Positions 11,827 through 23,298 are shown, counted from the stretch's first letter. The stretch: DNA of 64,000 nucleotides from Streptomyces virus StarPlatinum (IMGVR_UViG_2974628900_000001:60305-124304); one strand, 5' to 3'. The notes: generated by a model from the letters alone, not told the origin. A program made the numbers and translations.

Positions 11827-11835
11827 AAGGATTAA

Positions 11836-12456: not shown

Positions 12457-12476
12457 GCTGCTAAAGTAGTAAATGT

Positions 12477-12560: not shown

Positions 12561-12562
12561 AT

Positions 12563-12633: not shown

Positions 12634-12641
12634 CTCACCAT

Positions 12642-12713
12642 TCCCCATTGGTGTAATCGGCAACACAACAGGCTCTGACCCTGTTATTCCTAGTTCGAAT
12701 CTAGGGTGGGGAG
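12642..12713 (+). tRNA. tRNA-Gln (anticodon CTG)
   Basis: Acceptor tccccat/gtgggga, T-arm cctagTTCGAATctagg, anticodon loop ctCTGac. Confidence 0.7.
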
Positions 12714-12943
12714 CTGGTCCGACTTTACGATATCGGCGGAAATAACGGAACCGGAACTCACATAATAACCATGGTAAAAGTGAGGAATGGCGAAGGGAAA
12801 TATGCGGGAAGCGATGGGTAAAACCTCCTCGGATCGACAATTTAAGGCCAGTTGCAGGCCAGCATAGAACAATAGATCTCCCTGGGTTAGGCGCTTACGC
12901 CGTCTATTGTTTGAATGCGAAGGGGTCACGCCCAAGCAACTAT

Positions 12944-13014
12944 ATGTCCTAAGTGTTACGGTAGCACGGTGGTCTCCAAAACCACAAGCGAGGGTTCAAC
13001 TCCTTCAGGACATG
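12944..13014 (+). tRNA. tRNA-Trp (anticodon CCA)
   Basis: Perfect acceptor atgtcct/aggacat, anticodon stem gtggt/accac, loop ctCCAaa. Confidence 0.8.
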
Positions 13015-13020
13015 CTCTAT

Positions 13021-13056
13021 AAGGGTTCCAAACTTGCAATAAGATTTGGAACCCTT
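13021..13056 (+). terminator. 12-bp stem hairpin after tRNA-Trp, followed by TATAAT
   Basis: AAGGGTTCCAAA-12 nt-TTTGGAACCCTT then TATAAT and the HNH start. Confidence 0.5.
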
Positions 13057-13068
13057 TATAATTGCCTC

Positions 13069-13422
13069 ATGGCATACGCAGATATTGAGAAGAGTCGGGC
13101 AGCGAAGCGCGCCCACTATCACAAGAACAAGGAACAGTACAAGCTTAGGAACACTCAGAGAAAGCTGGAGATGAGAAACTATCTCATTGAGCTTAAGAGG
13201 GTTCCGTGTATGGACTGTGGAAATTCATACCCATTCTATTGCATGGATTTCGATCACAGAGATCCTTCTGAAAAGGAAGGGAACATTGGTCAAATTGTAA
13301 ACAATGGATCATGGAATAAACTTTACGCAGAGGTCGCCAAGTGCGATGTTGTCTGCGCAAACTGTCACAGAATTCGAACGGCGAAGAAGTCTAACTGGAC
13401 TCCTGACCAGCTATATAAGTGA
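13069..13422 (+). CDS. HNH endonuclease (small, tRNA-cluster associated)
   Basis: CMDCGNSYPFYCMDFDHRDP...CANCHRIRT HNH/zinc motif; paralogue of 29307..29651; extended ORF from 12907 would overlap tRNA-Trp. Confidence 0.7.
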   Translation: MAYADIEKSRAAKRAHYHKNKEQYKLRNTQRKLEMRNYLIELKRVPCMDCGNSYPFYCMDFDHRDPSEKEGNIGQIVNNGSWNKLYAEVAKCDVVCANCHRIRTAKKSNWTPDQLYK

Positions 13423-13876
13423 GGCAACATGGGATACTACACTTCGATACCAAGTTGAGATTGTCAGAGACAGCGAGAGAGCTAAGGATCTCATTGACAA
13501 CGCTGATAGTGTCACCATTCCTGGAAGCTACGAACTGAATCTATCTAGACTGCTCAACGGCAACTATGATACGATGAAGTGGTACGACTGGGAAGACGAC
13601 ATGGCTAGCCTCTCTAGAGATTGGCCGAATGTCCTCTTTGCCCTGAGTGGTGAAGGAGAGGAGCCCGGTGATCTCTGGAAGGCTTGGGTAAGAAACGGCA
13701 AGGTTGTCAAGGTAGAAGGTAGAATCGTCTACGATGTGCCAGACCTTGACAAGGTGCTTCCGATCAACGATACTGTAGAAGAGAAGTACAAGGCACAGAA
13801 GAAGGCAGAGCTTCAAGCCACGATCAAGGATCTTGAGAACAGGCTACAGGAGCTTAAGGGTCTATCTAAGGATTGA
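13304..13876 (+). CDS. hypothetical protein (start uncertain)
   Basis: 190-aa ORF; first 119 nt overlap HNH gene in another frame, so true start may be internal. Confidence 0.4.
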   Translation: MDHGINFTQRSPSAMLSAQTVTEFERRRSLTGLLTSYISEATWDTTLRYQVEIVRDSERAKDLIDNADSVTIPGSYELNLSRLLNGNYDTMKWYDWEDDMASLSRDWPNVLFALSGEGEEPGDLWKAWVRNGKVVKVEGRIVYDVPDLDKVLPINDTVEEKYKAQKKAELQATIKDLENRLQELKGLSKD

Positions 13877-13877
13877 G

Positions 13878-14045
13878 ATGGCACTAGTTGGAAACGGCAA
13901 TACATGCTGGTTTCAGCGATGTGGCAACAAGCCAATCCATCGAATTAGGTACTACAACAAGACCGTAATGGTTTGCAACAAGCACAAGAATCTCGATGGA
14001 GCTGGTTGTGCGCCTAGTCGCAGAAGGCCAAAAGATTCAGCTTGA
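13878..14045 (+). CDS. small Cys-rich protein
   Basis: AAGGA RBS, 55 aa, CWFQRC...CNKHK...C. Confidence 0.4.
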   Translation: MALVGNGNTCWFQRCGNKPIHRIRYYNKTVMVCNKHKNLDGAGCAPSRRRPKDSA

Positions 14046-14077
14046 CAGACGCTAGCGGGTCTGTTAGTATTAAGTAC
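14042..14077 (+). promoter_or_regulatory. sigma-70-like promoter before tRNA cluster
   Basis: TTGACA-17 nt-TAGTAT. Confidence 0.5.
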
Positions 14078-14099
14078 AACGCAGCGACAACGCTGCTAT

Positions 14100-14171
14100 C
14101 TGGCACGGGGAAGATGGTAATCCATTCGCTTTGGAAGCGTAAGAAACCCGGTTCGATTCCGGGGTGCCAGA
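14100..14171 (+). tRNA. tRNA-Pro (anticodon TGG), copy 1
   Basis: Acceptor ctggcac/gtgccag, T-arm cccggTTCGATTccggg, anticodon loop ttTGGaa (one stem mismatch). Confidence 0.6.
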
Positions 14172-14194
14172 CTCGGACTGCAAAAGCAGTCTAT

Positions 14195-14269
14195 CGGGAT
14201 GTAGCTCAGCTTGGTCAGAGCGCGCCGTTTGGGGCGGTGAAGTCGCAGGTTCGAATCCTGTCATCCCGA
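14195..14269 (+). tRNA. tRNA-Pro (anticodon TGG), copy 2
   Basis: Acceptor cgggatg/catcccg, D-arm GCTCAGCTTGGTCAGAGC, anticodon loop ttTGGgg. Confidence 0.65.
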
Positions 14270-14275
14270 CAATTT

Positions 14276-14346
14276 GGGTCGAATGGGACACGGTTATCAC
14301 TCAATGGATAATAGGTTCGATTCCTATCGCTGGGTTCGCTCGGTAG
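14276..14346 (+). ncRNA. Y-RNA-like element, copy a (5' module plus canonical T-arm, no pairing acceptor)
   Basis: GGGTCGAATGGGacaCGGTTATCACTCAATGG then T-arm ataggTTCGATTcctat; 5' and 3' ends do not form a tRNA acceptor stem. Confidence 0.4.
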
Positions 14347-14432
14347 ATACAAGTCATCCGAGATTGTGTGTGGTAGGATGACGTTAAGGACTACACACTA
14401 TCCGTTCCCGCCATATACCTAAAGGACTTACT

Positions 14433-14954
14433 ATGACTGTACTATTGAGAACAATTCATGGTTCCCATCTGTATGGGCTCGCTCACAAGGGTTCTGACAA
14501 AGACATTTACGAAGTAATTGCAACCAGTCGAACCAAGCGTAAGCGAAACATCAAGCAAACCATTGTGAATGGTGTTGACAAGACGACGGTAGATATGTCA
14601 ACATTTATGAATATGGTTGACGAATGCGTACCTCAAGCACTTGAAGCGCTATGGACGCCGGTCGCTGAGATCGATAAGATCCACGAATTCCGGACTCAAT
14701 ATCGAGTGAATCGCGCCAAGATGAAGGAAGTATACATTCGAACCGCTCTGAACTTCGCTAAGAGTGATGGAGTAAAGCAGAGGCGTCACGCTATCCGCCT
14801 GCTTCTGAATCTCGGTGCAGCTTTGGAATACGGTAAGTTTAATCCCCAGCTTTCCAACATGGACAAGTTCATTCTTGAATCTTCCATGGGCGAGACTGGA
14901 GCATATGAGGATGTCTTTCTAGGCGTCCTTGACGAAGTACAAAAGTGGGTCTGA
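14433..14954 (+). CDS. Pol-beta-superfamily nucleotidyltransferase domain protein
   Basis: hGSxxYGL(x9)GSDxD motif (HGSHLYGLAHKGSDKD) near N-terminus; 173 aa. Confidence 0.55.
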   Translation: MTVLLRTIHGSHLYGLAHKGSDKDIYEVIATSRTKRKRNIKQTIVNGVDKTTVDMSTFMNMVDECVPQALEALWTPVAEIDKIHEFRTQYRVNRAKMKEVYIRTALNFAKSDGVKQRRHAIRLLLNLGAALEYGKFNPQLSNMDKFILESSMGETGAYEDVFLGVLDEVQKWV

Positions 14955-14971
14955 AAGATGGCTCACGCCAC

Positions 14972-15048
14972 TGGGGCGTATACCCTCTGTCTGATAAACA
15001 GTTGAAAGGTTAAGTGGTCACATGTGGGTTCAACTCCCACCGTCCCAA
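14972..15048 (+). tRNA. probable tRNA, identity unresolved
   Basis: Canonical T-arm gtgggTTCAACTcccac and pairing acceptor tggggcg/cgtccca, but D and anticodon arms could not be folded by eye. Confidence 0.35.
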
Positions 15049-15087
15049 CTGGTCTCCTTGGTGAGACAATAGCAGAAAAACTAAATC

Positions 15088-16899
15088 ATGGTAGATTTCG
15101 ACAAGAAGCATTCAAAAGAACTTGTGAAACTCCCTGACTCAGACCTAGAGCTTAGCTCTAGGTCTTTTAGGCTTTCCAGTCAGGGTGCGCTTAAGCATGT
15201 CTCAGGAGGGGCACGCCTAAGCATGAAGAATCTGATTGACTGGTTGACTGTCGCAGACTACAAGATTGAGATTGCTAAGGCTAGACACGAAGGCAATCAT
15301 GAGAAGGCTCGCAAGCTGCGAATGGAACAACAGAAGCACGCACAACCACGCAGGAAGAGATTCTACATTTGCGTGGCGGCGTCTCTGGCCATCACAGCAT
15401 GGCTTACAAGCGCCTTCGGTGCTGTCACATTTGGCGCGGTGGCAGTCAGCCTCTTGATCGCCTTTGCCATAGTAGGAGTGACTAACAAGACTTACATCTT
15501 TGGTGAGGAAGAAGAAGATCAAGAAGAGGATGCTATGGCACCTTTCCCAATTGCAGATGCTCGTAACAGAGAAGAAGCGATTGAGTGCCTACGCAGAGCA
15601 TTGCTTGCAGAAGGAATCACTCCTCGGAATATCCTTGAACCAACTCGATACAATTGGGGCTGGGAATTCCCAGTCATTCTACGTAAGGGAACACCTGATG
15701 ATGTAATGGCTAAGACCAAGGATATGGAAACTCTGATGAGACTTCCCGCTGATGGAATGCTTGTTGCAGCTACCAGATTCCGAGCCGAAGTGATTATTCG
15801 TCTTATGCAGTCCGACCCATTTGCTGATATGACTGGACAGGGCAGAGCAGAGCCTCTATCTCGTTCAATCAAAAACAAGTACAAGGTCGCCCAGCGTATG
15901 GACGGACAGTTCCTTGAGATGTCTCTTCTAAGGAATCACGCAGTCATCATCGCCGCGCCTGGTGGTGGTAAGTCTATGTTCATGCGAACACTAGCAGACA
16001 TTACGACTAGCTGTCGTGATTGTGTAACCTGGGACATTGACCCCGGTGGAAATGGTCTTGAAGTATTCGGAGATGCTATTGCACGTAGAGGTAGAACAGA
16101 AGCTGAAATTGAGGAAATGCTCACTGAGGCTCTTGAATACACCAAGATTCGTGCAAAGAAGCTGACAAAGCTTCGCATGGGAGATAACTGGCAGCCAACG
16201 AGGGAACACCCTGCATTGGTCATCTTCATTGATGAGTTTATCCAGCTCAACAAGAAGTGCAAGGATCTCGCTGTAGACATCATTCGTAATGGACGTAAGT
16301 CAGCAATCACAGTCATTCTAGCTGCACAGCAGGCAACCAAGGATCAGCTTGGAGCGGCCATTGCAGACGCTGTATCAATTAAGGTAATGTTCGCCTCACG
16401 TCACGCCGATGTTCCTTTGGTATTTGGAGAGGGAGCCATCAGTCAGGGCTGGAGGCCAGATAAGCTACATCCTGCATCTGGAGAAGATCCAGAGGACGCA
16501 GGTAAGTGCTACATTATGGGCGGTGGCTCAAGAGAGCCATATCTCTACAAGGCATTTCCAATTGATCCAGACGAAGCAATTGAGATTGGTGATGAACGAG
16601 CCGGTGAAGGAATTGTCCAGCTAGATAAGGATACTTATCTAGACGTAACAGTCACAGATGTAACAGACAGAAGACTGCTCGAAGACATCATGGACATCTT
16701 TGAGAACTTTGACGAGCATGACTGGCTACCTGCTAGCATCTTGACCAAGGAACTACGAGGCTACGGACACATCTTGACAGCTCGTCAGCTTCATGAGATT
16801 CTAGGTAACACCGGTCGGGAGAGCCGAGTATGGGAAGGCTCTAAGTACAAGGTTGCCGGTTACTTTAGAAAGAACATCGAGAAGCAACTGGAGCAGTAA
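15088..16899 (+). CDS. FtsK/SpoIIIE-family DNA translocase-like ATPase with N-terminal membrane anchor
   Basis: TM segment FYICVAASLAITAWLTSAFGAVTFGAVAVSLLIAFAIVG, acidic linker, Walker A IIAAPGGGKSMF, Walker B LVIFIDEF. Confidence 0.75.
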   Translation: MVDFDKKHSKELVKLPDSDLELSSRSFRLSSQGALKHVSGGARLSMKNLIDWLTVADYKIEIAKARHEGNHEKARKLRMEQQKHAQPRRKRFYICVAASLAITAWLTSAFGAVTFGAVAVSLLIAFAIVGVTNKTYIFGEEEEDQEEDAMAPFPIADARNREEAIECLRRALLAEGITPRNILEPTRYNWGWEFPVILRKGTPDDVMAKTKDMETLMRLPADGMLVAATRFRAEVIIRLMQSDPFADMTGQGRAEPLSRSIKNKYKVAQRMDGQFLEMSLLRNHAVIIAAPGGGKSMFMRTLADITTSCRDCVTWDIDPGGNGLEVFGDAIARRGRTEAEIEEMLTEALEYTKIRAKKLTKLRMGDNWQPTREHPALVIFIDEFIQLNKKCKDLAVDIIRNGRKSAITVILAAQQATKDQLGAAIADAVSIKVMFASRHADVPLVFGEGAISQGWRPDKLHPASGEDPEDAGKCYIMGGGSREPYLYKAFPIDPDEAIEIGDERAGEGIVQLDKDTYLDVTVTDVTDRRLLEDIMDIFENFDEHDWLPASILTKELRGYGHILTARQLHEILGNTGRESRVWEGSKYKVAGYFRKNIEKQLEQ

Positions 16900-17114
16900 T
16901 GGAAATGTTGATGGTTGGTCCGGTGTTCCTGTGGGGTCTGGTCAGTCTCTTTCTTGTAAAGAAGAAGGGTAGGCAGTGGCCAGACCTCATTTGGGGAATT
17001 CTCGGCGGACTCATTCTCGCCAAGCTATTTCCGCAAACCGTAGACAGCGTGTTCAACCTGTTTAGCGGTGCCTGGGACACTATCGTCAGCCTCTTCAACA
17101 GCGTCAGTGCTTGA
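16899..17114 (+). CDS. small membrane protein (2 predicted TM helices)
   Basis: 71 aa, hydrophobic segments GPVFLWGLVSLFLV and ILGGLILAKLF. Confidence 0.45.
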   Translation: MEMLMVGPVFLWGLVSLFLVKKKGRQWPDLIWGILGGLILAKLFPQTVDSVFNLFSGAWDTIVSLFNSVSA

Positions 17115-17162
17115 CAGACAAGCTGACACGTTGTAAGCTGTAGCTAAAGGTCTTCGGACCGA

Positions 17163-17236
17163 GCGCCTGTAGCATATGTGGTTGATGCGCCAGTCTTATA
17201 AACTGGAGAAAGCGGGTTCAAATCCCGCCAGGCGTA
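17163..17236 (+). tRNA. tRNA-Ile (anticodon TAT)
   Basis: Acceptor gcgcctg/caggcgt, D gcat/atgc, anticodon stem ccagt/actgg, loop cTTATAa; preceded by TTGACA-17-TAAGCT and a UUCG hairpin. Confidence 0.7.
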
Positions 17237-17262
17237 CTTTGTAATCAACCGAAGGGACAGAA

Positions 17263-17436
17263 ATGGCTCTGTCAAAGCTATTTCCGGTGGGAACTCGGGT
17301 GAAGGTTACTCGTGGTTCTTACAAGAACAAGTACGGCAAGGTTACACTTGTGGGCGGCGATCATAAGATCGTCATCCTTGAAAGGGAAGGCACTCCGCTG
17401 TATGGTGTGAGTGACGAGATGGTTCAGAAGGCATGA
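17263..17436 (+). CDS. small KOW/SH3-like protein (family member)
   Basis: 57 aa, VGTRVKVTRGSYKNKYGKVTLVG KOW-like; starts 27 nt after tRNA-Ile; below 60-aa cutoff. Confidence 0.5.
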   Translation: MALSKLFPVGTRVKVTRGSYKNKYGKVTLVGGDHKIVILEREGTPLYGVSDEMVQKA

Positions 17437-17747
17437 TGAATCTGAATGAGCTAATGAAGTGCAGGCGTTGCCATCGACATGAGCCTTTGTGGTCCCATGC
17501 TTTGGGAACATTTTGCACTGAATGCGCACATCTGGCAGACAAGATCATGGATGATGATTGCAAGATTCTTGCGTTTCTTGCTTATGAAGTTCATGAGTTT
17601 GTCGAAGGAGATCTTGTCTGGGATCTTGAAACTGGAGATCACGGATACTTCTTCACGGAAGGATTGCAGTGCCATCATGTGCTAGTCGATGGCGAAATCC
17701 GTCAGTACAACAAGATGAACGTCTATCTCTCAAACGTGGAGGTCTAA
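17433..17747 (+). CDS. Cys/His-rich hypothetical protein
   Basis: 104 aa, CRRCHRHE...CTEC...C..HH. Confidence 0.45.
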   Translation: MMNLNELMKCRRCHRHEPLWSHALGTFCTECAHLADKIMDDDCKILAFLAYEVHEFVEGDLVWDLETGDHGYFFTEGLQCHHVLVDGEIRQYNKMNVYLSNVEV

Positions 17748-17923
17748 TGGACAGCAAGAAGGGTCTTGAAGTCGGGACAAAGGTCATTGTTGGTTCAGAC
17801 AAGAAGAAGGGTGAGATCTGGGAGCTTGGAACCAATCCAACTCTCGTTAAAGTTCTCATGAAGGAAGGACCCTGGGAGGGACAGGTTATGCTTGTCGTTC
17901 TTAAGCAGGTGAAGATTGCCTGA
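17747..17923 (+). CDS. small KOW/SH3-like protein (family member)
   Basis: 58 aa from ATG 17747 (TAATG overlap), VGTKVIVGSDKKKGEIWELG. Confidence 0.5.
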   Translation: MDSKKGLEVGTKVIVGSDKKKGEIWELGTNPTLVKVLMKEGPWEGQVMLVVLKQVKIA

Positions 17924-18125
17924 GTTCAAGTCAGGTGATATAATCAGAGTGAAGCCAGACAATCCGAAGATGCCCAAGAAGTATTGGAGGTTGACTGGAG
18001 TCATCGCTTCAAGGGAGACCTTTCTTGTTCGGAAGATATTTCGGACAGACTATCTTGTGATCATGCATGGTAGTTTGGAAGCTGCGACTTTCAAAGAAAG
18101 TGACATAGAGCTTTACCGCCCCTAA
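17916..18125 (+). CDS. small KOW/SH3-like protein (family member)
   Basis: 69 aa, SGDIIRVKPDNPKMPKKYWRLTGVI. Confidence 0.5.
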   Translation: MPEFKSGDIIRVKPDNPKMPKKYWRLTGVIASRETFLVRKIFRTDYLVIMHGSLEAATFKESDIELYRP

Positions 18126-18135
18126 CAGGGCACAT

Positions 18136-18220
18136 GGAAGGTAAGCGATTGGTTAGCAGGCGTCTTGGAAAGGCGCTAAGGGTGTCAAAGCCCGGCAGGG
18201 TTCAATTCCCTGGCCTTCCG
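18136..18220 (+). tRNA. tRNA-Ser (anticodon GGA), type II
   Basis: Acceptor ggaaggt/gccttcc, anticodon stem gcgtc/ggcgc, loop ttGGAaa, long variable arm, T-arm cagggTTCAATTccctg. Confidence 0.75.
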
Positions 18221-18231
18221 CTGGAGGTGCT

Positions 18232-18459
18232 ATGATTATCTGTGGCGACATGGTTCAAGTAAAGCACAACCGTGAGAATGTTGATCCTGCTTATTACGGT
18301 AAGCGTGGTCGGGTTCACAAGCGTACTCGATTTCTCAAGAGGCTCGGTGCCGGTGAGTACGAAATTATGTTCTTCGAAAGGGATCTCAATCATCCTATCA
18401 TGGGTGTAATGGGAGGATTCCTTGAGGAAGATCTAGAAGTTGTTGGCGGTAAGTGCTGA
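18232..18459 (+). CDS. small KOW/SH3-like protein (family member)
   Basis: 75 aa, GDMVQVKHNRENVDPAYYGKRGRVHK. Confidence 0.5.
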   Translation: MIICGDMVQVKHNRENVDPAYYGKRGRVHKRTRFLKRLGAGEYEIMFFERDLNHPIMGVMGGFLEEDLEVVGGKC

Positions 18460-18468
18460 CAGCTTTAT

Positions 18469-18556
18469 GGAGGCGTTAACGTTGGCAGTGTGGAGGGCTC
18501 TTGAAAAGCCCACGGTATAGTGATATGCCGCGAGAGTTCGAATCTCTCCGCCTCCG
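18469..18556 (+). tRNA. tRNA-Ser (anticodon TGA), type II
   Basis: Acceptor ggaggcg/cgcctcc, anticodon stem gggct/agccc, loop ctTGAaa, 20-nt variable arm. Confidence 0.8.
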
Positions 18557-18559
18557 CTT

Positions 18560-18590
18560 AGTCCGGTACATTATTGTGCCGGACTTTTTC
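18560..18590 (+). terminator. rho-independent terminator after tRNA-Ser
   Basis: AGTCCGG-12 nt loop-CCGGACT followed by TTTTT. Confidence 0.65.
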
Positions 18591-18601
18591 ATAGGAGCAC
18601 T

Positions 18602-18754
18602 ATGCTAAGAAAAGGAAAGAAACAAAAGGACTGCTATCACGTCAACGTGAGAAAGATCTACGGAGACGAGATTATCGCAGCCGGATTCAACAGAGCCTAT
18701 TGCTATGATTGCAAGAGGTTTTTGCCAACACTTCCGCCCGAAAGGACTAAATAA
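18602..18754 (+). CDS. small Cys-containing protein
   Basis: AGGAG RBS, 50 aa (MLRKGKKQKDCYHVN...CYDCKRF). Confidence 0.4.
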   Translation: MLRKGKKQKDCYHVNVRKIYGDEIIAAGFNRAYCYDCKRFLPTLPPERTK

Positions 18755-18969
18755 TGGCAATGAGCGATCAGGAAGAAGTTCGCTTTTACTACAGGCTTGT
18801 GCGTGAACTTCCTGAAAAGGAAAGGGCCTACAAGGAGATGCTTAAGAACATCCGTGGTCTTAAGGGTGCAGAAAAGGATAAGGCTTCAAGGAAAGCCCTT
18901 CCTTATGGCATGGAGATTGGTGGAATGAAGGAAACCATCAAGGCTCTAAAGAAGAAGCACAAGCTGTGA
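18754..18969 (+). CDS. hypothetical protein
   Basis: 71-aa charged ORF. Confidence 0.4.
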   Translation: MAMSDQEEVRFYYRLVRELPEKERAYKEMLKNIRGLKGAEKDKASRKALPYGMEIGGMKETIKALKKKHKL

Positions 18970-19358
18970 ACGCTGTGCTCATTGGCGTTCTACTGCATTT
19001 CGTTGGTGACTATCTAATCCAGACGGATTGGATGGCCCAATTGAAGACAAAGAGATGGACACCGGCCATTCTTCACGGAGTGACCTATGGTGCTCCATTT
19101 CTTTTTGTCACGCAGTCATGGCTAGCTCTACTAGTCATCATTGGAACGCACATCATAATTGACCATTATCGCCTGGCTCGTCATGTAGTCTGGGCGAAAA
19201 ACCAATTGGCTCCGCGCGAGTTTAGATACTCCTGGGCCGAAGGTAGCAAGACGGGATACAGAGACGATGCACCTGTGTGGCTTACCACATGGCTTATGAT
19301 CATCGCTGACAACACTATTCATATTGCTATCAATACACTAGCCATCCTCTACCTATGA
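18966..19358 (+). CDS. integral membrane protein
   Basis: 130 aa with about 4 hydrophobic helices. Confidence 0.5.
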   Translation: MNAVLIGVLLHFVGDYLIQTDWMAQLKTKRWTPAILHGVTYGAPFLFVTQSWLALLVIIGTHIIIDHYRLARHVVWAKNQLAPREFRYSWAEGSKTGYRDDAPVWLTTWLMIIADNTIHIAINTLAILYL

Positions 19359-19370
19359 GGGTGGCTTTTG

Positions 19371-19510
19371 TCATGTCACAACTGTCATGACATCGGGGTG
19401 ACATGTCACGGTGACAGTGACACTTCTGTCACGGCCTCTGTCACGCTGTCACGCATTGAAGAATGTCACGGTGTCACTCTGTCACGTGACACTTTTCTGA
19501 TTTGTCACGG
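19371..19510. repeat. array of about 7 direct TGTCACG heptamers plus inverted GTGACA copies
   Basis: catGTCACGgtg, tcTGTCACGgcc, tcTGTCACGctg, gcTGTCACGcat, aaTGTCACGgtg, tcTGTCACGtga, ttTGTCACGggc within 140 bp of intergenic DNA. Confidence 0.7.
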
Positions 19511-19694
19511 GCGCGGCGGGCCGGTGCGGAGGGGTTACGTCTTTGCGGTTCTCCATATATCTAAAGGATACAAGGAAGGAGTTGACAGAACGACAGAGAC
19601 CTGTTAAGGTAAATTATACTGGGAAGAGAAAAGAAATAGAGTACAAGAAATCGATACGGGTATCGATACAAGATAGTATATTAGGATAATATAT

Positions 19695-19949
19695 ATGAGA
19701 CTGTTCGAGCTACATAGAGACATCGACTCATCAGGAGTCAGCGGCACGGGCATCGTTGCTCAGGGCGTAGAGTTTGACAACGGGCAGTGTGCTATGTCAT
19801 GGTTGTCTCAGTGGACCTCAGTCGCCTTGTATCCAGACATTGAGACTCTGGAGGCGATTCATGGACACAATGGCAACACTCGTGTAGTATGGCTAGAAGA
19901 TGATGACGATTACTGGGCAGGCTATCAGTCAGCACCAGTTGGATCTTAA
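19695..19949 (+). CDS. hypothetical protein
   Basis: 84-aa ORF downstream of TTGACA promoter-like site and palindrome ATCGATACGGGTATCGAT. Confidence 0.45.
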   Translation: MRLFELHRDIDSSGVSGTGIVAQGVEFDNGQCAMSWLSQWTSVALYPDIETLEAIHGHNGNTRVVWLEDDDDYWAGYQSAPVGS

Positions 19950-19957
19950 GGACTCAG

Positions 19958-20122
19958 ATGTTCAACGGCTTCGGTGACTTCCTTGACATGGTAGACAGGA
20001 ATATGACACAGTGGGAAGCAGAACAAGAAAAGATCCGAGAAGCATTTGCTGAGGGTGTTACTGTTGAGTTTGATGACGGTGAAGTACGAGAGTACGGCCC
20101 GTTTGACAAGCCCTCACCTTGA
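19958..20122 (+). CDS. small hypothetical protein
   Basis: AAGGA RBS, 54 aa (MFNGFGDFLDMVDRNMTQWEAEQEK...). Confidence 0.35.
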   Translation: MFNGFGDFLDMVDRNMTQWEAEQEKIREAFAEGVTVEFDDGEVREYGPFDKPSP

Positions 20123-20188
20123 TGCTACTGTAGTTAGTAGGTGGTCAGTCGTAAGGGTTACAAAATCCGAATCGGCCCGCCACCCTTT

Positions 20189-20265
20189 GGCCTCTGGGAC
20201 TGCTAGGTTGTGGTCACTGCCCTGTCAAGGCAGACATCAGGCGGGTTCGATTCCCGTAGGGGTCG
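20189..20265 (+). tRNA. tRNA-Asp (anticodon GTC), copy 1
   Basis: Acceptor ggcctct/aggggtc (two G-U pairs), anticodon stem ctgcc/ggcag, loop ctGTCaa; variable region slightly long. Confidence 0.55.
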
Positions 20266-20295
20266 CTTCAATAAGAAAACAACAAGCGAGGTTCA

Positions 20296-20487
20296 ATGAC
20301 CAAGCGAGAAGCTGCCGTTGTGGCAGTATTTACTGGAATACTCATCGGTGACTTTGCCGATATGCACGAGTACATTGAAGAACTGGCTGGCCGTCCTGTA
20401 TGGACACATGAGCTAGCGTCAGAAGAGTTTGCTGCTGAGCTTAAGGAACTAGCCCGGCCAGACTTTATGGAAATCGTTGTAGAGTAA
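20296..20487 (+). CDS. hypothetical protein
   Basis: 63-aa ORF. Confidence 0.4.
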   Translation: MTKREAAVVAVFTGILIGDFADMHEYIEELAGRPVWTHELASEEFAAELKELARPDFMEIVVE

Positions 20488-20502
20488 CCAACAAGGGATA
20501 TT

Positions 20503-20745
20503 ATGGCTGATAAGCTGTGGGAAGTCAGCGGCACATTCGTTCGAAATGGTGCCAAGCGAGAGTTCAACAACGTTTACTCTGGCAAGAACGCTGATGCTGC
20601 AAAGAGCGCGGCGATGAAGGACTACAACACTCATGTTCGAGCTGGTTACGAGAAGAAGGTAAGCTACGGCAAGCTTTCTATTACCAAGGTCGAAGAGTGG
20701 ACCAAGGAGAGGGCTCGCGCCTTTGCCAAGAGTAAGGGCTTCTGA
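20503..20745 (+). CDS. small Lys-rich protein (tandem paralogue 1)
   Basis: 80 aa; pattern WEVSG...SGKNADAAKSAAMKDY echoes next ORF. Confidence 0.45.
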   Translation: MADKLWEVSGTFVRNGAKREFNNVYSGKNADAAKSAAMKDYNTHVRAGYEKKVSYGKLSITKVEEWTKERARAFAKSKGF

Positions 20746-20957
20746 TGGGTAGGGCTAACTGGGATGTCAAAGGAAAGTATGACGTAAAGTACCCTGACGC
20801 AAAGAAGCCGGTGACAGAAGCATACCATCTGTCATTCGAGGCAAAGAGCAAGTCCGATGCTTTGAGTCAGGCGAAGAACGATTTCAGGGCAAACTCCAAG
20901 GTTAATGGATTAGTTTACTCCAATCTCCGCGACCTTGTGGCAACGCCAATCAAGTAA
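20745..20957 (+). CDS. small Lys-rich protein (tandem paralogue 2)
   Basis: 70 aa; WDVKG...KSKSDALSQAKNDF. Confidence 0.45.
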   Translation: MGRANWDVKGKYDVKYPDAKKPVTEAYHLSFEAKSKSDALSQAKNDFRANSKVNGLVYSNLRDLVATPIK

Positions 20958-20977
20958 GACTTGCCCTTCGGGGCTAA

Positions 20978-21048
20978 CCCGGCGTAGTGTAATGGAAACA
21001 CGATACGTTGTCAGCGTATTATCGAGGGTTCGATTCCCTTCGTCGGGA
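20978..21048 (+). tRNA. tRNA-Asp (anticodon GTC), copy 2
   Basis: Acceptor cccggcg/cgtcggg, D gtgt/acac, anticodon stem atacg/cgtat, loop ttGTCag; preceded by GCCC-UUCG-GGGC hairpin. Confidence 0.65.
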
Positions 21049-21053
21049 CTTTT

Positions 21054-21128
21054 GGGTCGAATGACTATCGGTTATCTGTCTATGAAACAGACTGAAACAC
21101 GGTTCGAATCCGTGGATTGCTTTGGATG
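21054..21128 (+). ncRNA. Y-RNA-like element, copy b (5' module + GAA-loop hairpin + canonical T-arm)
   Basis: GGGTCGAATGActatCGGTTATCTGTCTatgaaacAGAC then cacggTTCGAATccgtg; no complementary 3' acceptor; 0.5 kb upstream of Ro60 gene. Confidence 0.45.
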
Positions 21129-21171
21129 CTAGGTTTACGGTCGATGTCAACAACTTACCCATACAACTTAA

Positions 21172-21246
21172 TTCGGGCCGAATGGAATCGGTTATCTTAC
21201 ACTGCAAATATAAGGTCGATTCCTACCAACTTGCCCGATCTTTTCA
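21172..21246 (+). ncRNA. Y-RNA-like element, copy c (closing stem TCGGGC/GCCCGA + U-tail)
   Basis: tcGGGCCGAATGGaatCGGTTATCTTACA...aaggTCGATTCct...GCCCGAtcttttc; 5' and 3' ends pair, T-rich tail; 0.4 kb upstream of Ro60 gene. Confidence 0.45.
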
Positions 21247-21267
21247 TTTCTACGGAAGGATCAAAGG

Positions 21268-21603
21268 TTGGACACCGAAGCACGCATTGCGCGTTTCAAG
21301 GAGCTATGGTCATCAGGCCAGAGCTATTGGGCAGAAGATATCGTTGACGAAATCAACGAAGAACTCGGTGAAGATGAGTTCAAGCTAAAGCATGTAGAGA
21401 CAGTCGAAGAGGCTACTTCTCGCTGGATGGATCACATGCTAGATATCGTTGAGATTGATGAAGGTGTCTTTGTCGGAGTACGCTGGGAAAGCGGTAAGAC
21501 AGAGATGCAAGAAAACATGTATGAAGACGATGATGTCTATCTGCTTGAACGAGTAGAGAAGGTCGTCACCACTGTTGAGTGGAATGACGTAAAGACTCTC
21601 TAA
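21268..21603 (+). CDS. hypothetical acidic protein
   Basis: 111 aa, TTG start with GGAAGGA RBS. Confidence 0.45.
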   Translation: MDTEARIARFKELWSSGQSYWAEDIVDEINEELGEDEFKLKHVETVEEATSRWMDHMLDIVEIDEGVFVGVRWESGKTEMQENMYEDDDVYLLERVEKVVTTVEWNDVKTL

Positions 21604-21638
21604 AACTAAATGCCCTACAAGGGCCGGAAAGGAAAGAA

Positions 21639-23267
21639 ATGTCCAACGCACTAACTAATGCCGCAAAGGCAACCAACAAGACTTCTCAGAATCTGCCAGC
21701 AAAGGCAGGACAGGTCAAGAACAACGCTGGTGGATTCGTCTTCCAGGTTTCTGATCAGTCTCGCCTTGAGCGATTTCTGATTCTTGGAACTGATGGAGGA
21801 ACGTATTACGTTTCTGAGGTTAACCACACTCAGTCAAACGTGACCTTCCTCAACGAGATGATTGCCCGAGACGAAGCCTCTGTACTGAACACAATCGTTG
21901 ATGTATCTGTCAATGGTCGTGCGTACAAGCAGTCTCCTGCCCTGTTCGCTCTAGCCTCTGTCATTGTCAACGGCAAGGATAAGCAGGCGGTCAAGGCGGT
22001 ATTCAACAAGGTCGTAAGGACTGCTACTCACCTCTACGAGGTAGTTAACTATCTTAACGAGCTTGGTGGATGGGGTCGCGCAAAGCGAGAAATCGTAGCT
22101 GGCTGGTTCGACAAGGACGCTGATAAGCTTGCTTATCAGGCTGTCAAGTATCGTTCCCGCACGTTCGGTGGAAACACCTGGACGCTACGAGACGTAATGC
22201 GAAAGGCTCACCCACAGAACGTTAACACGTCTGTTGCTGATTTCGTCCTAGGCAAGGAGCACGCGGCTGTAGATGACCTTCGGGTTATCGAGGGCTTCAA
22301 GCTTATGCAGAAGGCGGAGTCTGTAGAGGCTGTGCACGCAGTTCTGCGGGATTACGAGATGCTTAGCTGGGAGACCATTCCAACGCAGTTCCTCACGGAT
22401 GCTAGCGTTTGGAAGCGACTCTTTGCTAATGGTCAGCTTCGTGGTCAGGCTGCTGTTCGAAACATTACTCGCCTCGCGCGTATTGGTGCTTTCAAGGACA
22501 TGCGGTTCGCTGCGAACTTTGCTAGCCAGCTAGCGAATGAGGAAATGATTCGTCAATCTCGACTGCACCCAATTAACTTCCTTAACGCTGCCGTTGTTTA
22601 TGCCGATGGCCAGGTGGATCGAAAGAACATCTGGGGTGGACGTGTAAAGAACTGGGAGACTGAGGGTGTTATTGTCGATGCAATCGATGAGGCGTTCCAC
22701 AAGTCATTCAAGACCATTGAGCCAGCCGGTAAGAGGACGATGCTAGCCATCGACTGTTCCGGTTCAATGAGCACACAGGCTATGGGTCTCGACCTAAGCT
22801 GTGCGCAGGTTGCTGGCGCTATGGCAATGACCATTGCTCGTACTGAGCCAGCTCACATCATCCGTGGTTTCTCTTCCAAGGGATACAACTGGCGTGATAG
22901 CGGTATGGCCGAACTAAAGATCACCAGCCGTAGCTCTCTTGCTCAGGCAATGAGTGCAATGCGTGCGGTGAACTGGGGAGGCACAGACTGCTCACTTCCA
23001 ATGACGTGGGCGCTTGAGAATGGCGTAGAGGTTGACACCTTCGTCGTTATCACTGATAACGAGACGTGGGCTGGAAAGATTCACCCATTCCAGGCTCTTA
23101 AGAAGTACCGCAAGGAAATGGGAATTGACGCAAGGCTCGCTGTTCTAGGAGTCGCTTCAACTCCATTTACTATCGCTGATCCTAGCGATAGCGGCATGAT
23201 GGACTTCGTTGGCTTTGATAGCAACGCTCCACGTGTTCTTGCTGACTTCTCCGCAGGTCGCATCTGA
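21639..23267 (+). CDS. rsr: Ro60/Rsr-like ribonucleoprotein (TROVE domain + vWA domain)
   Basis: RLERFLILGTDGGTYY matches Ro60 signature RLHRFLCFGSEGGTYY; PALFALASV matches PMLFALAIC; C-terminal vWA MIDAS AIDCSGSM; 542 aa. Confidence 0.9.
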   Translation: MSNALTNAAKATNKTSQNLPAKAGQVKNNAGGFVFQVSDQSRLERFLILGTDGGTYYVSEVNHTQSNVTFLNEMIARDEASVLNTIVDVSVNGRAYKQSPALFALASVIVNGKDKQAVKAVFNKVVRTATHLYEVVNYLNELGGWGRAKREIVAGWFDKDADKLAYQAVKYRSRTFGGNTWTLRDVMRKAHPQNVNTSVADFVLGKEHAAVDDLRVIEGFKLMQKAESVEAVHAVLRDYEMLSWETIPTQFLTDASVWKRLFANGQLRGQAAVRNITRLARIGAFKDMRFAANFASQLANEEMIRQSRLHPINFLNAAVVYADGQVDRKNIWGGRVKNWETEGVIVDAIDEAFHKSFKTIEPAGKRTMLAIDCSGSMSTQAMGLDLSCAQVAGAMAMTIARTEPAHIIRGFSSKGYNWRDSGMAELKITSRSSLAQAMSAMRAVNWGGTDCSLPMTWALENGVEVDTFVVITDNETWAGKIHPFQALKKYRKEMGIDARLAVLGVASTPFTIADPSDSGMMDFVGFDSNAPRVLADFSAGRI

Positions 23268-23272: not shown

Positions 23273-23298
23273 ACCCCTTCTTCGGAAGGGGTTTTTGC
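23273..23298 (+). terminator. rho-independent terminator after rsr
   Basis: CCCCTTC-TTCG-GAAGGGG followed by TTTTT. Confidence 0.75.

What the first reader, a model, noticed from the sequence alone, without database searches (positions are those of the whole stretch)
21054..23267. Ro60/Rsr orthologue with two candidate Y-RNA-like genes immediately upstream
The 542-aa protein at 21639..23267 carries the Ro60 TROVE signature (RLERFLILGTDGGTYY, PALFALASV) and a C-terminal vWA MIDAS. Two about 75-nt elements lie 0.4-0.6 kb upstream (21054..21128 and 21172..21246). Both begin GGG(T/C)CGAATGG...CGGTTATC, which strongly resembles the conserved 5' end of metazoan Y RNAs (GGUCCGAAGG...GUUAUC). They carry tRNA-like T-arm material but have no tRNA acceptor stem; one ends in a closing stem plus U-tail. 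Bacterial and phage Rsr genes are known to be linked to tRNA-mimicking Y RNAs, so a Ro60-Y RNA ribonucleoprotein module is plausible here.
Basis: partly seen in the sequence, partly recalled or inferred. Interest (0 to 1): 0.9.

Follow-up and report, generated by a model that had tools for sequence, protein, structure and literature searches.

The report
Phage Ro60 gene with Y RNAs
A Streptomyces phage carries a full-length Ro60 RNA-binding protein gene preceded by two unannotated small Y RNA genes (two more sit among its tRNA genes), which adds a new phage family to a partnership already known in bacteria and other phages.

Summary
The window is Streptomyces phage StarPlatinum (cluster BE2). 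The 542-aa ORF at 21639..23267 is a full-length Ro60/Rsr orthologue with TROVE and vWA-MIDAS domains. Both upstream elements are real, conserved, structured RNAs on the Ro60 strand. Each has the bacterial Y-RNA motif GNCGAANG, a 5'/3' closing stem, a second stem and an invariant GGUUAUC.

Its 3' strand lies at 21142..21161, so it spans about 21050..21164 (about 110 nt). It contains an anticodon-arm-like hairpin and a perfect T arm, making it a reduced YrlA-like RNA. Element 2 (21171..21245) is a 68-nt YrlB-like or metazoan-like minimal Y RNA. Its "T-arm material" is really the 3' strand of stem 2.

Covariance models built from related phages show strong covariation: 93% of cells paired against 36-47% in slid controls, and 16 of 19 pairs with compensatory changes. 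They find exactly four such elements in the window, adding 12473..12559 and 14273..14423. All four abut tRNA genes or each other.

Rfam YrlA and Y_RNA do not detect them, and no GenBank record examined annotates them as Y RNAs. The long-plus-short tandem upstream of rsr matches Mycobacterium smegmatis and mycobacteriophages. I file it as a new member of a known kind.

The parts
20978..21049 (+). tRNA-Asp(GUC). Its 3' end abuts element 1, so 3' processing of the tRNA would create the 5' end of the Y RNA.
   Evidence: ARAGORN. Rfam tRNA at 60.6 bits. Annotated in MH576965.
21050..21164 (+). Element 1 ('Yc'), a long, reduced YrlA-like Y RNA of about 110 nt. Its parts are:
- stem 1: 21053-57 with 21157-61
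- GUCGAAUG motif: 21056-63
- stem 2: 21063-70 with 21142-48 (U21066 bulged)
- GGUUAUC: 21070-76
- anticodon-arm-like hairpin: UCUGU/ACAGA at 21075-79/21087-91, with 7-nt loop CUAUGAA
- T arm: 21098-21114
- poorly defined GG-containing segment: 21115-21141
- AACAACUU: 21149-56
   Evidence: Sequence. Model R2 scores 101 bits (training member). The region is conserved at 96-97% where the surrounding 2.4 kb is about 91% identical. Wofford shows compensatory changes: GAUUAUCG/CGAUAUC and UGAGGGU/AUCCUCA.
21171..21245 (+). Element 2 ('Yd'), a short YrlB-like or minimal Y RNA. Its parts are:
- stem 1: 21173-78 with 21233-38
- GCCGAAUG motif: 21177-84
- stem 2: GGAAUCG 21184-90 with CGAUUCC 21217-23
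- GGUUAUC: 21190-96
- UACCAACUU: 21224-32
- tail: UCUUUUC 21239-45
   Evidence: Sequence. The MFE fold gives exactly this shape, z = -2.7. Rfam RF01656 scores 32.1 bits. Model R1 scores 79.9 bits (training member). Model R2, which was not trained on it, scores 40.3 bits with E 4.6e-7. Stem 2 shows compensatory variants in Tomas, Wofford and Yaboi.
21268..21603 (+). Conserved 111-aa acidic ORF (gp132) between the Y RNAs and Ro60. Function unknown.
   Evidence: ORF list. PHROG 13073, 7e-47, unknown function. No Pfam match. Syntenic in Tomas.
21639..23267 (+). Ro60/Rsr orthologue, 542 aa, with a TROVE ring and a vWA domain carrying an intact MIDAS.
   Evidence: Annotated 'Ro-like RNA binding protein'.
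23275..23298 (+). Intrinsic-terminator-like hairpin (CCCTTCTTCGGAAGGGG followed by TTTTTGC) that closes the tRNA-Asp / Y / gp132 / Ro60 unit.
   Evidence: Consensus scan. Function is inferred.
12473..12559 (+). Third Y-like RNA ('Ya'), short type. It has an 8-bp closing stem (12473-80 with 12552-59), the motif GUCGAAGG and GGUUAUC. It ends 3 nt before tRNA-Gly.
   Evidence: R1 scores 36.3 bits, E 3.7e-6, and R2 scores 41.5 bits, E 2.5e-7; it was in neither training set. GGG/CCC changes to GAG/CUC in Jay2Jay and Tomas. Present in 43 phage records.
14273..14423 (+). Fourth Y-like RNA ('Yb'), 151 nt. It has stem 1 (14273-79 with 14417-23), the motif GUCGAAUG, GGUUAUC, a T arm (14311-27) and extra hairpins with a candidate pseudoknot. 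It starts 1-2 nt after tRNA-Pro. Its 3' strand overlaps the Shine-Dalgarno sequence of the next gene.
   Evidence: R2 scores 30.5 bits, E 9.2e-5; the model alignment is partial. On 4 orthologues, 97.9% of cells pair against 41-51% in slid controls. Present in 83 phage records.
14433..14954 (+). Context gene: nucleotidyltransferase directly downstream of Yb, with a weak resemblance to the RlaP RNA-repair family.
Evidence: Pfam RlaP at 22.2 bits, E 1.3e-4, just under the cutoff of 23.

Best explanation
The locus is a phage-encoded Ro60-Y RNA ribonucleoprotein module.

Biogenesis (inferred). The two elements are transcribed on the same strand as the upstream tRNA-Asp and the downstream gp132-Ro60 genes. 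They are released from that precursor by tRNA-processing and other host RNases.

Binding (inferred by homology). Each RNA closes its 5' and 3' ends into a bulged helix: stem 1, GNCGAANG opposite (A/C)CAACUU, then stem 2. This is the Ro60-binding module, and it docks on the outer surface of the phage Ro60 ring.

Roles of the two RNAs (inferred).
- Element 1 carries a reduced tRNA-like effector module, with an anticodon-arm-like hairpin, a T arm and a GG-containing segment. By analogy with YrlA and Yrn1, this would recruit a tRNA-binding or exonucleolytic partner such as host PNPase.
- Element 2 is a minimal Y RNA. It probably gates or stabilises Ro60, as YrlB-type RNAs are thought to do.

Likely function (inferred). 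The phage also encodes two more paralogous Y RNAs, 43 tRNAs, a tmRNA, an Rnl1-type RNA ligase, Pnkp and an RlaP-like nucleotidyltransferase. Together these suggest that the RNP serves quality control, turnover or repair of structured RNAs, tRNAs above all, during infection.

What is shown here: the protein identity, the RNA motifs, the helices and their covariation, the conservation, the strand bias and the tRNA adjacency. Transcription, processing, Ro60 binding and the effector are all inferred.
For: - Protein: Ro60 is full length with an intact MIDAS.
- Motif: CGAANG...GGTTATC occurs 4 times, all on the + strand, against 0.02 expected.
- Short-type alignment (14 sequences): 89% of cells paired against 27-44% when slid, and 11 of 15 pairs have compensatory changes.
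- All hits in 45 sources: 69 matches, every one on the Ro60 strand, none on the other strand in 344 kb. Of the cells, 93% pair against 36-47% when slid, and 16 of 19 pairs have compensatory changes, the T arm included.
- Window scan without filters: four hits at E<1e-4, and everything else is a tRNA T arm at E>0.1. There are none in the first 50 kb of the genome.
- Rfam: element 2 aligns to the nematode Y-RNA homologue family over the Ro-binding helix.
- Cross-detection: the Streptomyces-phage model finds a long-plus-short tandem directly upstream of Ro in mycobacteriophage ScottMcG. That hit overlaps a partial Rfam YrlA hit.
- Related phages: Loccivirinae relatives carry full YrlA-type elements with T, acceptor-like and D arms at the same place.
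- Conservation: the 218-nt RNA region is 96-97% identical in phages whose 2.4-kb region is about 91% identical.
- Adjacency: 59 of 69 elements lie within 30 nt of a tRNA gene or another Y element.
- Literature: in M. smegmatis, YrlA and YrlB lie in tandem upstream of rsr, are cut from one precursor and are bound by Rsr (PMC4201824). Thermus phage phiLo Ro60 binds two upstream Yrl RNAs and host PNPase in vitro (PMC12135203).
Against: - There are no expression, end-mapping or binding data.
- Rfam Y_RNA and YrlA give no hit in the window even at E<=10. The RF01656 hit is below its gathering score.
- Element 1 has no acceptor-stem mimic and no convincing D arm, so its tRNA mimicry is incomplete.
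- The single-sequence fold of element 1 is not better than shuffles (z = -0.8). Its minimum-energy structure breaks the T arm, although enforcing the T arm costs only 1.5 kcal/mol.
- No promoter or terminator of their own was found.
- The effector is unknown. The link to the RNA-repair genes is by co-occurrence only, and the RlaP match is sub-threshold.
- Pair counts on the model-derived alignment A4 lean towards the model's own structure.
Confidence: 0.8

Rival explanations
1. The elements act in cis. They are structured parts of the polycistronic tRNA-Asp / gp132 / Ro60 transcript that serve as Ro60 autoregulatory binding sites, RNase processing signals or attenuators. In this reading they are not free trans-acting Y RNAs.
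For: No promoter or strong terminator of their own was found. Element 2 ends 22 nt before the gp132 start region with only a short U run. The 3' strand of Yb overlaps the Shine-Dalgarno sequence of the next gene.
Against: Two paralogues (Ya, Yb) lie 7-9 kb from Ro60 among tRNAs. In bacteria, Y RNAs with this same layout are cut from operon transcripts and accumulate bound to Rsr (PMC4201824). A cis role and a trans role are also not mutually exclusive.
Confidence: 0.1
2. They are decaying tRNA gene remnants in a tRNA array. Their conservation reflects recent common ancestry, and they have no relation to Ro60.
For: Element 1 contains contiguous anticodon-arm-like and T-arm segments. These weakly match genuine phage tRNA-Thr and tRNA-Arg (E 0.02-0.24). 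Annotators called the Mildred21 orthologue tRNA-Ser and part of the Trina array 'tRNA-OTHER'.
Against: The conserved parts are the non-tRNA 5'/3' module (GNCGAANG, GGUUAUC, CAACUU), and it carries compensatory changes. Elements 2 and Ya have no tRNA parts at all. The family recurs next to Ro60 genes that are only 34-58% identical, on the Ro60 strand only. ARAGORN and Rfam tRNA do not call them.
Confidence: 0.05
3. Chance similarity, or protein-coding sequence: unannotated ORFs overlap the region at 20935-21132, 21117-21347 and 21122-21388.
For: Mechanical ORFs of 65-88 aa overlap the region.
Against: The motif count is 4 against 0.02 expected. Model E-values run from 1e-6 to 1e-21. Substitutions are paired across helices rather than following codons. 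None of these ORFs is annotated in any of the records examined.
Confidence: 0.01

Closest known systems
Mycobacterium smegmatis YrlA + YrlB, and the YrlA RNAs of Bxz1-type mycobacteriophages (Chen et al. 2014, PMC4201824)
   Same: A long tRNA-like Y RNA followed by a short Y RNA, in tandem, on the same strand and just upstream of rsr/Ro60, with a GNCGAAN0-1G motif, YUAY and a T arm. The model built here from Streptomyces phages also detects the ScottMcG long-plus-short tandem.
   Different: Element 1 lacks the acceptor-stem mimic and a clear D arm. It therefore cannot be an RNase P / CCA-adding substrate in the way M. smegmatis YrlA is. Rfam YrlA gives no hit. The elements directly abut tRNA genes, and there are four paralogues spread over 9 kb.
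Salmonella Typhimurium YrlA / YrlB (Rfam RF02553; YrlA crystal structure 6cu1, bioRxiv 10.1101/312249)
   Same: A two-module design: a Ro60-binding bulged helix plus an effector module, together with a short second Y RNA that lacks the full tRNA-like domain.
   Different: In Salmonella the RNAs sit in the rsr-yrlBA-rtcBA operon under RtcR control. The full L-shaped tRNA mimic with D, T and acceptor-like arms is present there, whereas here only the T arm is canonical.
Thermus phage phiLo Ro60 with Yrl1 and Yrl2 (PMC12135203, 2025)
   Same: A phage-encoded Ro60 with two Y-like RNAs immediately upstream, recognised by a CGAA motif in a stem-bulge-stem. That system is shown to bind Ro60 and host PNPase in vitro.
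   Different: The phage lineage and host differ. phiLo Ro60 was not matched by the PDB sequence search, which found only 2nvo, 9nen and 1yvp. No tRNA-array context is described for phiLo. Nothing has been tested experimentally for the Streptomyces phage.
Metazoan Y RNAs (RF00019) and nematode stem-bulge RNAs (RF01656)
   Same: Element 2 is the size of a small Y RNA. It has GGNCCGAA...GGUUAUC on the 5' side, CAACUUG(C/A)CC on the 3' side and a terminal U run. It aligns to RF01656 across the whole Ro-binding helix. From memory, human Y1 and Y4 read UGGUCCGAAGGUAGUGAGUUAUC ... CACUUGACUAGUCUUUU.
   Different: The score is below the family threshold (32.1 against 38), and there is no hit to RF00019. 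A bacterial host has no Pol III or La context. The similarity is confined to the Ro-binding module.
Deinococcus radiodurans Yrn1 (RYPER: Ro60 / Y RNA / PNPase)
   Same: A Y RNA with a T-arm-like hairpin and an anticodon-arm-like hairpin but no full D arm, which is close to the reduced layout of element 1. It provides the mechanistic precedent of a Y RNA tethering Ro60 to PNPase.
   Different: No sequence relationship was tested. The order of the arms relative to the Ro-binding stem may differ. A PNPase interaction is purely inferred here.

Membership tests
Ro60 / Rsr (TROVE-domain ring protein) | TROVE (HEAT-repeat ring) domain followed by a vWA domain, over the full length | tested here: met
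   Pfam TROVE 5.6e-35 and vWA_Ro60 3.8e-61. Residues 22-541 align with residues 23-533 of Rsr 2nvo at 6e-99.
Ro60 / Rsr (TROVE-domain ring protein) | MIDAS motif DxSxS...T...D in the vWA domain | tested here: met
   The motifs DCSGS, GGTDCS and TDNET align with DVSGS, GGTDCA and TDNET of Rsr.
Bacterial Y RNA (sensu Chen et al. 2014) | GNCGAAN0-1G motif near the 5' end | tested here: met
   GUCGAAUG at 21056-63, GCCGAAUG at 21177-84, GUCGAAGG at 12479-86 and GUCGAAUG at 14278-85.
Bacterial Y RNA (sensu Chen et al. 2014) | 5' and 3' ends pair into a bulged helix (the Ro-binding module), supported by covariation | tested here: met
   89-93% of cells paired against 27-47% in slid controls. Stem 1 has 4-5 pairs with compensatory changes, and every stem-2 pair that varies has them.
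Bacterial Y RNA (sensu Chen et al. 2014) | Encoded within about 4 kb of the Ro60 gene, on the same strand | tested here: met
   Elements 1 and 2 lie 0.59 and 0.47 kb upstream on the + strand. Ya and Yb are 9.1 and 7.2 kb upstream, so they fail the distance criterion, but they are on the same strand. All 69 family hits are on the Ro60 strand.
Bacterial Y RNA (sensu Chen et al. 2014) | Accumulates as a discrete RNA and is bound by Ro60 | not testable with these tools
   Needs Northern blot or RNA-seq and RIP or EMSA.
YrlA (Rfam RF02553) | Score at or above the Rfam gathering threshold (69 bits) | tested here: not met
   No YrlA hit in the window at E<=10. Relatives reach only 28-43 bits, as does the mycobacteriophage positive control at 36.1 bits. 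The threshold is therefore strict even for phage members of the described group.
YrlA (Rfam RF02553) | T stem-loop with a tRNA-like T loop | tested here: met
   Element 1 has CACGG-UUCGAAU-CCGUG at 21098-21114, and Yb has AUAGG-UUCGAUU-CCUAU at 14311-27. In the family, 4 of the 5 T-stem pairs covary. Elements 2 and Ya have no T arm.
YrlA (Rfam RF02553) | Acceptor-stem-like (AS) hairpin between the T and D arms | tested here: not met
   Element 1 has only about 27 nt (21115-41) between the T arm and the 3' strand of stem 2, with at most a 2-3-bp hairpin. The AS hairpin is present in Loccivirinae relatives.
YrlA (Rfam RF02553) | D stem-loop with a conserved GG | tested here: inconclusive
   A GG-containing mini-hairpin follows the T arm in Tomas (AGCA-UGG-UGCU), Samistivirus (GCCC-AAGGCAC-GGGC) and L021 (GGA-UGGU-UCC). 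In StarPlatinum (GC-UUUGGAU-GC) it is barely a helix. MAFFT does not align these hairpins in register.
YrlA (Rfam RF02553) | Conserved YUAY after the Ro-binding module | tested here: met
   UUAUC is invariant or nearly so in both alignments.
Metazoan Y RNA / nematode sbRNA (RF00019 / RF01656) | Score at or above the Rfam gathering threshold | tested here: not met
   RF01656 scores 32.1 bits against a threshold of 38 for element 2 only. RF00019 does not appear at E<=10.
tRNA | Cloverleaf with an acceptor stem, detectable by ARAGORN or Rfam RF00005 | tested here: not met
   None of the four elements is called.

The most novel reading that the evidence does not exclude
The four paralogous Y RNAs of BE-cluster Streptomyces phages may form a distinct, minimised class. 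In this reading they are built into the phage tRNA array and matured by the tRNA-processing machinery. Each would tether the phage Ro60 to a different partner, such as host PNPase or the phage RlaP-like nucleotidyltransferase, Rnl1 ligase and Pnkp. Together they would form a phage-encoded tRNA surveillance and repair RNP that counters host anticodon-nuclease defences. The 151-nt Yb, with its candidate pseudoknot overlapping the ribosome-binding site of the nucleotidyltransferase gene, would couple that enzyme's expression to the state of the RNP.
Probability: 0.15. Interest if true: 0.7.

Novelty: new member of a known kind. Interest (0 to 1): 0.4.

Why it matters
- Annotation gap. Ro60-Y RNA modules are already documented in bacteria, mycobacteriophages and a Thermus phage, so the partnership itself is not new. 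What is new is that at least 90 sequenced Streptomyces phages (Stanwilliamsviridae) annotate only the protein. In none of the records examined here are their Y RNAs annotated as such. Standard Rfam thresholds miss them, and some are mislabelled as tRNAs.
- A natural deletion series. The family runs from a full YrlA in Loccivirinae, to a form with T arm and mini D arm in Samistivirus and Tomasvirus, to a form with little more than a T arm in BE2. This could show which parts of the tRNA mimic are needed.
- Testable biogenesis. The elements are placed flush against tRNA genes, which suggests a maturation route coupled to tRNA processing that can be tested directly.
- Experimental access. These phages are lytic and their hosts grow easily in culture, which could make them a practical system for asking what a viral Ro60 RNP does.

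Tried and rejected
- Rfam at gathering thresholds over the whole window returned only tRNAs and the tmRNA.
- Rfam at E<=10 over the locus gave no Y_RNA or YrlA hit.
This prompted the search for the true 3' strand.
- My first regular expression used the wrong YUAY pattern and missed element 1. It was corrected.
- A stem-pairing scanner that required a 6-bp stem 1 missed both elements of the finding, whose closing stems have 5-6 pairs.
- MAFFT put the 3' strand of stem 2 of the Karimacvirus sequences one column out of register. As a result, RNAalifold on A3 returned a spurious invariant CGA/UCG pairing instead of stem 2. Stem 2 was therefore specified by hand and re-aligned by the model.
- Model R1 (short type) does not span the long elements, so a second model was needed.
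- The scan of bacterial genomes for Ro60 relatives returned only 7 MAG loci and no Streptomyces host locus. The origin of the module from the host could therefore not be addressed.
- I suspected that the HNH endonuclease gene in EGole disrupts the Y RNA. It does not: the element is intact at L006:1068-1180, and the HNH CDS merely overlaps its first 19 nt.
- The promoter and terminator scans gave nothing specific to the elements. The 'terminator' reported at 21098-21114 is the T arm.
- Two DNA search patterns failed, one on syntax and one on spacing, before worked.
- The Annual Review on bacterial Ro60 (PMC10870794) and the supplementary phage table of Chen et al. 2014 are not held. I could not check whether any Streptomyces phage was among their 22 phages. 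All BE-cluster records I saw date from later.
Full report
**Identity of the window.** The 2.4 kb around the finding is 100% identical to Streptomyces phage StarPlatinum (MH576965; Stanwilliamsviridae, Karimacvirus; the relative CeilingFan, about 91% identical over this region, is assigned to subcluster BE2 in PMC13191466). Window position 20900 corresponds to record position 81204. The window carries 42 tRNA genes and one tmRNA by ARAGORN, all on the + strand. GenBank annotates the 542-aa ORF as 'Ro-like RNA binding protein'. It annotates nothing between tRNA-Asp (20978-21049) and the next CDS at 21268.

**The protein.** ORF 21639..23267 contains the quoted peptides and the MIDAS triad. It matches Pfam TROVE (5.6e-35) and vWA_Ro60 (3.8e-61). 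It aligns over its whole length with the solved structures of D. radiodurans Rsr (6e-99), human Ro60 (1.5e-85) and Xenopus Ro60 (1.3e-82). A tblastn search finds Ro60 in 358 phage records: 212 Mycobacterium, 115 Streptomyces, and others from Gordonia, Microbacterium and Rhodococcus. This part of the finding is correct and already annotated.

*Element 2* folds on its own into the expected shape (z = -2.7):
- closing stem UCGGGC/GCCCGA (21173-78 with 21233-38);
- an internal loop holding CGAAU on the 5' side and UACCAACUU on the 3' side;
- a second stem GGAAUCG/CGAUUCC (21184-90 with 21217-23);
- then GGUUAUC and a loop, with UCUUUUC after the closing stem.

The 'T-arm-like' GGTCGATTCC is simply the 3' strand of stem 2.

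Its partner strands lie further downstream:
- CGAUGUC (21142-48) pairs with GAC(U)AUCG (21063-70);
- ACCCA (21157-61) pairs with UGGGU (21053-57);
- AACAACUU lies between these two 3' strands.

The element is therefore about 110 nt (21050/53..21161/64). Inside it are:
- a 5-bp hairpin UCUGU/ACAGA with a 7-nt loop CUAUGAA (21075-91) that has the geometry of an anticodon arm;
- a 6-nt linker;
- a canonical T arm CACGG-UUCGAAU-CCGUG (21098-21114);
- a 27-nt GG-containing segment with little helix.

The minimum-energy fold of the single sequence is ambiguous in the interior. Enforcing the T arm costs only 1.5 kcal/mol.

**More than chance.** The pattern CGAANG-N3-10-GGTTATC occurs four times in 64 kb, all on the + strand, against 0.02 expected. 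The sites are 21058, 21179, 12481 and 14280.

**Comparative evidence.**
- The 218-nt RNA region is found in 37 Streptomyces phage records. It is 96-97% identical in phages whose surrounding 2.4 kb is about 91% identical.
- I fetched Ro60 loci from annotated phages and from 40 IMG/VR contigs with Ro60 34-98% identical.
- An alignment of 14 short elements from diverse phages (A2) supports the two-stem model: 89% of cells paired against 27-44% in slid controls, and 11 of 15 pairs with changes on both sides.
- Examples for stem 2 of element 2 are GGAAUCG/CGAUUCC (StarPlatinum), GAGAUCG/CGAUCUC (Tomas/Naboo), AAG(U)UCGA/UCGA(U)CUU (Wofford) and GAG(U)AUCGA/UCGAU(A)UUC (Yaboi).
- For element 1, Wofford has GAUUAUCG/CGAUAUC and UGAGGGU/AUCCUCA in place of GACUAUCG/CGAUGUC and UGGGU/ACCCA.

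**Covariance models.** Two models were built: R1 (short type, from A2) and R2 (long type, from 16 elements of Karimac-, Tomas- and Samistivirus and one metagenomic phage).

Scanning the window with filters off gave the following:

| Model | Hit | Bits | E-value | In training set? |
|---|---|---|---|---|
| R1 | element 2 (21172-21239) | 79.9 | 2.6e-16 | yes |
| R1 | 12474-12558 | 36.3 | 3.7e-6 | no |
| R2 | element 1 (21050-21164) | 101.1 | 3.2e-21 | yes |
| R2 | 12473-12559 | 41.5 | 2.5e-7 | no |
| R2 | element 2 (21171-21240) | 40.3 | 4.6e-7 | no |
| R2 | 14272 onward | 30.5 | 9.2e-5 | no |

All other R2 matches have E>0.1, and nearly all are tRNA T arms.

- Over 45 sources (344 kb, both strands), R2 gives 69 hits at E<=1e-3. 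All are on the Ro60 strand and all but one lie upstream of Ro60.
- On that alignment, 93% of cells pair against 36-47% when slid. Sixteen of 19 pairs have compensatory changes, including 4 of 5 T-stem pairs. The caveat is that a model-derived alignment leans towards its own structure.
- The first 50 kb of the StarPlatinum genome has no further copy.

**Relation to known families.** Chen et al. 2014 (PMC4201824) define bacterial Y RNAs by three things: a GNCGAAN0-1G motif near the 5' end; location within 4 kb of rsr on the same strand; and, for YrlA, a permuted tRNA-like domain with V, T, acceptor-like (AS) and D stem-loops and a conserved YUAY. They found such RNAs in 254 bacteria and 22 phages.

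In M. smegmatis a long YrlA and a short YrlB lie in tandem upstream of rsr, are cut from one precursor and co-precipitate with Rsr. The layout here is the same: a long tRNA-like RNA, then a short one, then (after one small ORF) Ro60.

Rfam's YrlA model (gathering score 69) gives no hit in the window at E<=10. However, it also scores only 36 bits on the Bxz1-type mycobacteriophage ScottMcG and 28-43 bits on related Streptomyces-type phages. My R2 model finds a 144-nt plus 70-nt tandem right upstream of the ScottMcG Ro gene, overlapping that YrlA hit. It also finds five elements upstream of Ro in Rhodococcus phage Trina.

Element 2 matches the nematode stem-bulge RNA family RF01656, a Y-RNA homologue, at 32.1 bits (E 1.5e-4, below the gathering score of 38). 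The alignment covers precisely the two strands of the Ro-binding helix and UUAUC.

**A graded series of tRNA mimicry.**
- Loccivirinae phages (Belfort, TunaTartare and metagenomic relatives) carry full YrlA-type elements with T arm, acceptor-like hairpin and D arm (GUAGUUUAACUGGCAAAACUA), plus short ones.
- Samistivirus and Tomasvirus keep the T arm followed directly by a GG-loop mini-hairpin and no acceptor-like hairpin.
- In StarPlatinum and most BE2 phages even that hairpin is marginal.

Element 1 thus fails two YrlA-defining features (the AS hairpin and a clear D arm) while meeting the others. I file it as a reduced YrlA-like Y RNA, not as a member of RF02553. Its anticodon-arm-like hairpin is supported by a G-C to A-U change in Tomas and L021. 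Positions 27-86 of R2 weakly match genuine tRNA-Thr and tRNA-Arg anticodon and T arms. This hints that the effector module derives from a tRNA gene of the array (inference).

**Context and likely biogenesis.**
- Element 1 starts directly after tRNA-Asp, and element 2 follows 6 nt later.
- Ya ends 3 nt before tRNA-Gly.
- Yb starts 1-2 nt after tRNA-Pro.
- Across all loci, 29 of 69 elements are within 30 nt of a same-strand tRNA gene, and 59 of 69 are within 30 nt of a tRNA or another Y element.
- No separate promoter was detected, and the only convincing terminator follows Ro60 at 23275-23298.

I infer co-transcription with the tRNAs and with gp132-Ro60, and release by RNase P, tRNA 3'-end processing and other nucleases. 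This is as shown for the M. smegmatis precursor.

Ya and Yb are conserved at the same positions in 43 and 83 phage records and show compensatory changes.

**Likely function.** By homology, the bulged helix binds the outer face of the Ro60 ring. The interior module of element 1 and Yb would recruit a partner, while the short RNAs would occupy or gate Ro60. Two precedents exist: the Ro60-Y RNA-PNPase machine of Deinococcus and Salmonella, and the phiLo Ro60-Yrl-PNPase complex assembled in vitro (PMC12135203).

The phage also encodes an Rnl1-type RNA ligase (43002-44078), a polynucleotide kinase-phosphatase (44833-45723) and, immediately downstream of Yb, a nucleotidyltransferase with a sub-threshold RlaP match. 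Comparative work places Ro/TROVE proteins and RlaP in RNA-repair systems of large phages (PMC7824862). A role in tRNA surveillance or repair during infection is therefore plausible but untested.

**Novelty.** The concept is established for bacteria, mycobacteriophages, CcrColossus, Bacillus phage G and phiLo. I found no paper describing Y RNAs in Streptomyces phages. The BE2 genome announcement lists only the Ro-like protein. None of the phage records I examined annotates the elements as Y RNAs. Mildred21 labels its orthologue 'tRNA-Ser(tga)' and Trina has a pseudo 'tRNA-OTHER' there.

**Verdict.** The finding is correct and well reasoned, with one boundary error. It adds new, structurally reduced members in a new phage family to a known kind of system. 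Interest is moderate.

Noticed in passing
window 12473-12559: A third Y-like RNA (short type) with an 8-bp closing stem, GUCGAAGG and GGUUAUC. It ends 3 nt before tRNA-Gly, is unannotated, and is conserved in 43 phage records with a GGG/CCC to GAG/CUC compensatory change.
   Followed up: yes
window 14273-14423: A fourth Y-like RNA of 151 nt, starting right after tRNA-Pro and containing a T arm. Inside it, GUCAUCC (14353-59) is complementary to GGAUGAC (14376-82), which lies in the loop of a 9-bp hairpin (14366-74/14390-98). This is a candidate pseudoknot, and each helix has one compensatory change among 4 phages. The 3' strand of stem 1 overlaps the Shine-Dalgarno sequence of the downstream nucleotidyltransferase gene (ATG at 14433).
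   Followed up: partly
window 14433-14954, 43002-44078, 44833-45723: A set of RNA-repair-type genes: a nucleotidyltransferase with a borderline Pfam RlaP match (22.2 bits against a cutoff of 23), a T4 Rnl1-type RNA ligase, and a polynucleotide kinase-phosphatase (HAD_PNKP plus a P-loop kinase).
   Followed up: partly
L007:1084-1155 (Mildred21) and L059:2631-2839 (Rhodococcus phage Trina): GenBank features 'tRNA-Ser(tga)' and the pseudo 'tRNA-OTHER' overlap Y-like elements found by model R2 (L007:1079-1195 at 94 bits; L059:2767-2899 at 36 bits). They are probably mis-annotated Y RNAs.
   Followed up: partly
L008, L009, L022-L029, L042 (Loccivirinae phages), upstream of Ro60: These phages carry three to five Y-like elements each, including full YrlA-type RNAs with T, acceptor-like and D arms. 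Rhodococcus phage Trina has five in a row (L059:1641-2899).
   Followed up: partly
L006:736-1086 (EGole): An HNH endonuclease gene is inserted between tRNA-Asp and the Y element. Its last 19 nt overlap the 5' end of the intact Y RNA (1068-1180).
   Followed up: partly
window 27786-27902 and 14972-15048: Rfam tRNA hits just above the gathering score (33.6 and 30.3 bits) that ARAGORN did not call. The first is 117 nt long, so it may be a tRNA with an insertion or a degenerate copy. Conversely, GenBank annotates a tRNA-Tyr at 36421-36492 that neither tool listed.
   Followed up: no
window 39244-39523: A phage-encoded tmRNA (Rfam 92.5 bits) with tag peptide ANSNVASAYALAA.
   Followed up: no
window 21268-21603: A conserved, very acidic 111-aa ORF (PHROG 13073, unknown function) always sits between the Y RNAs and Ro60 in Karimac- and Tomasvirus. 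Samistivirus has two ORFs there instead. It may be a partner of the module.
   Followed up: no
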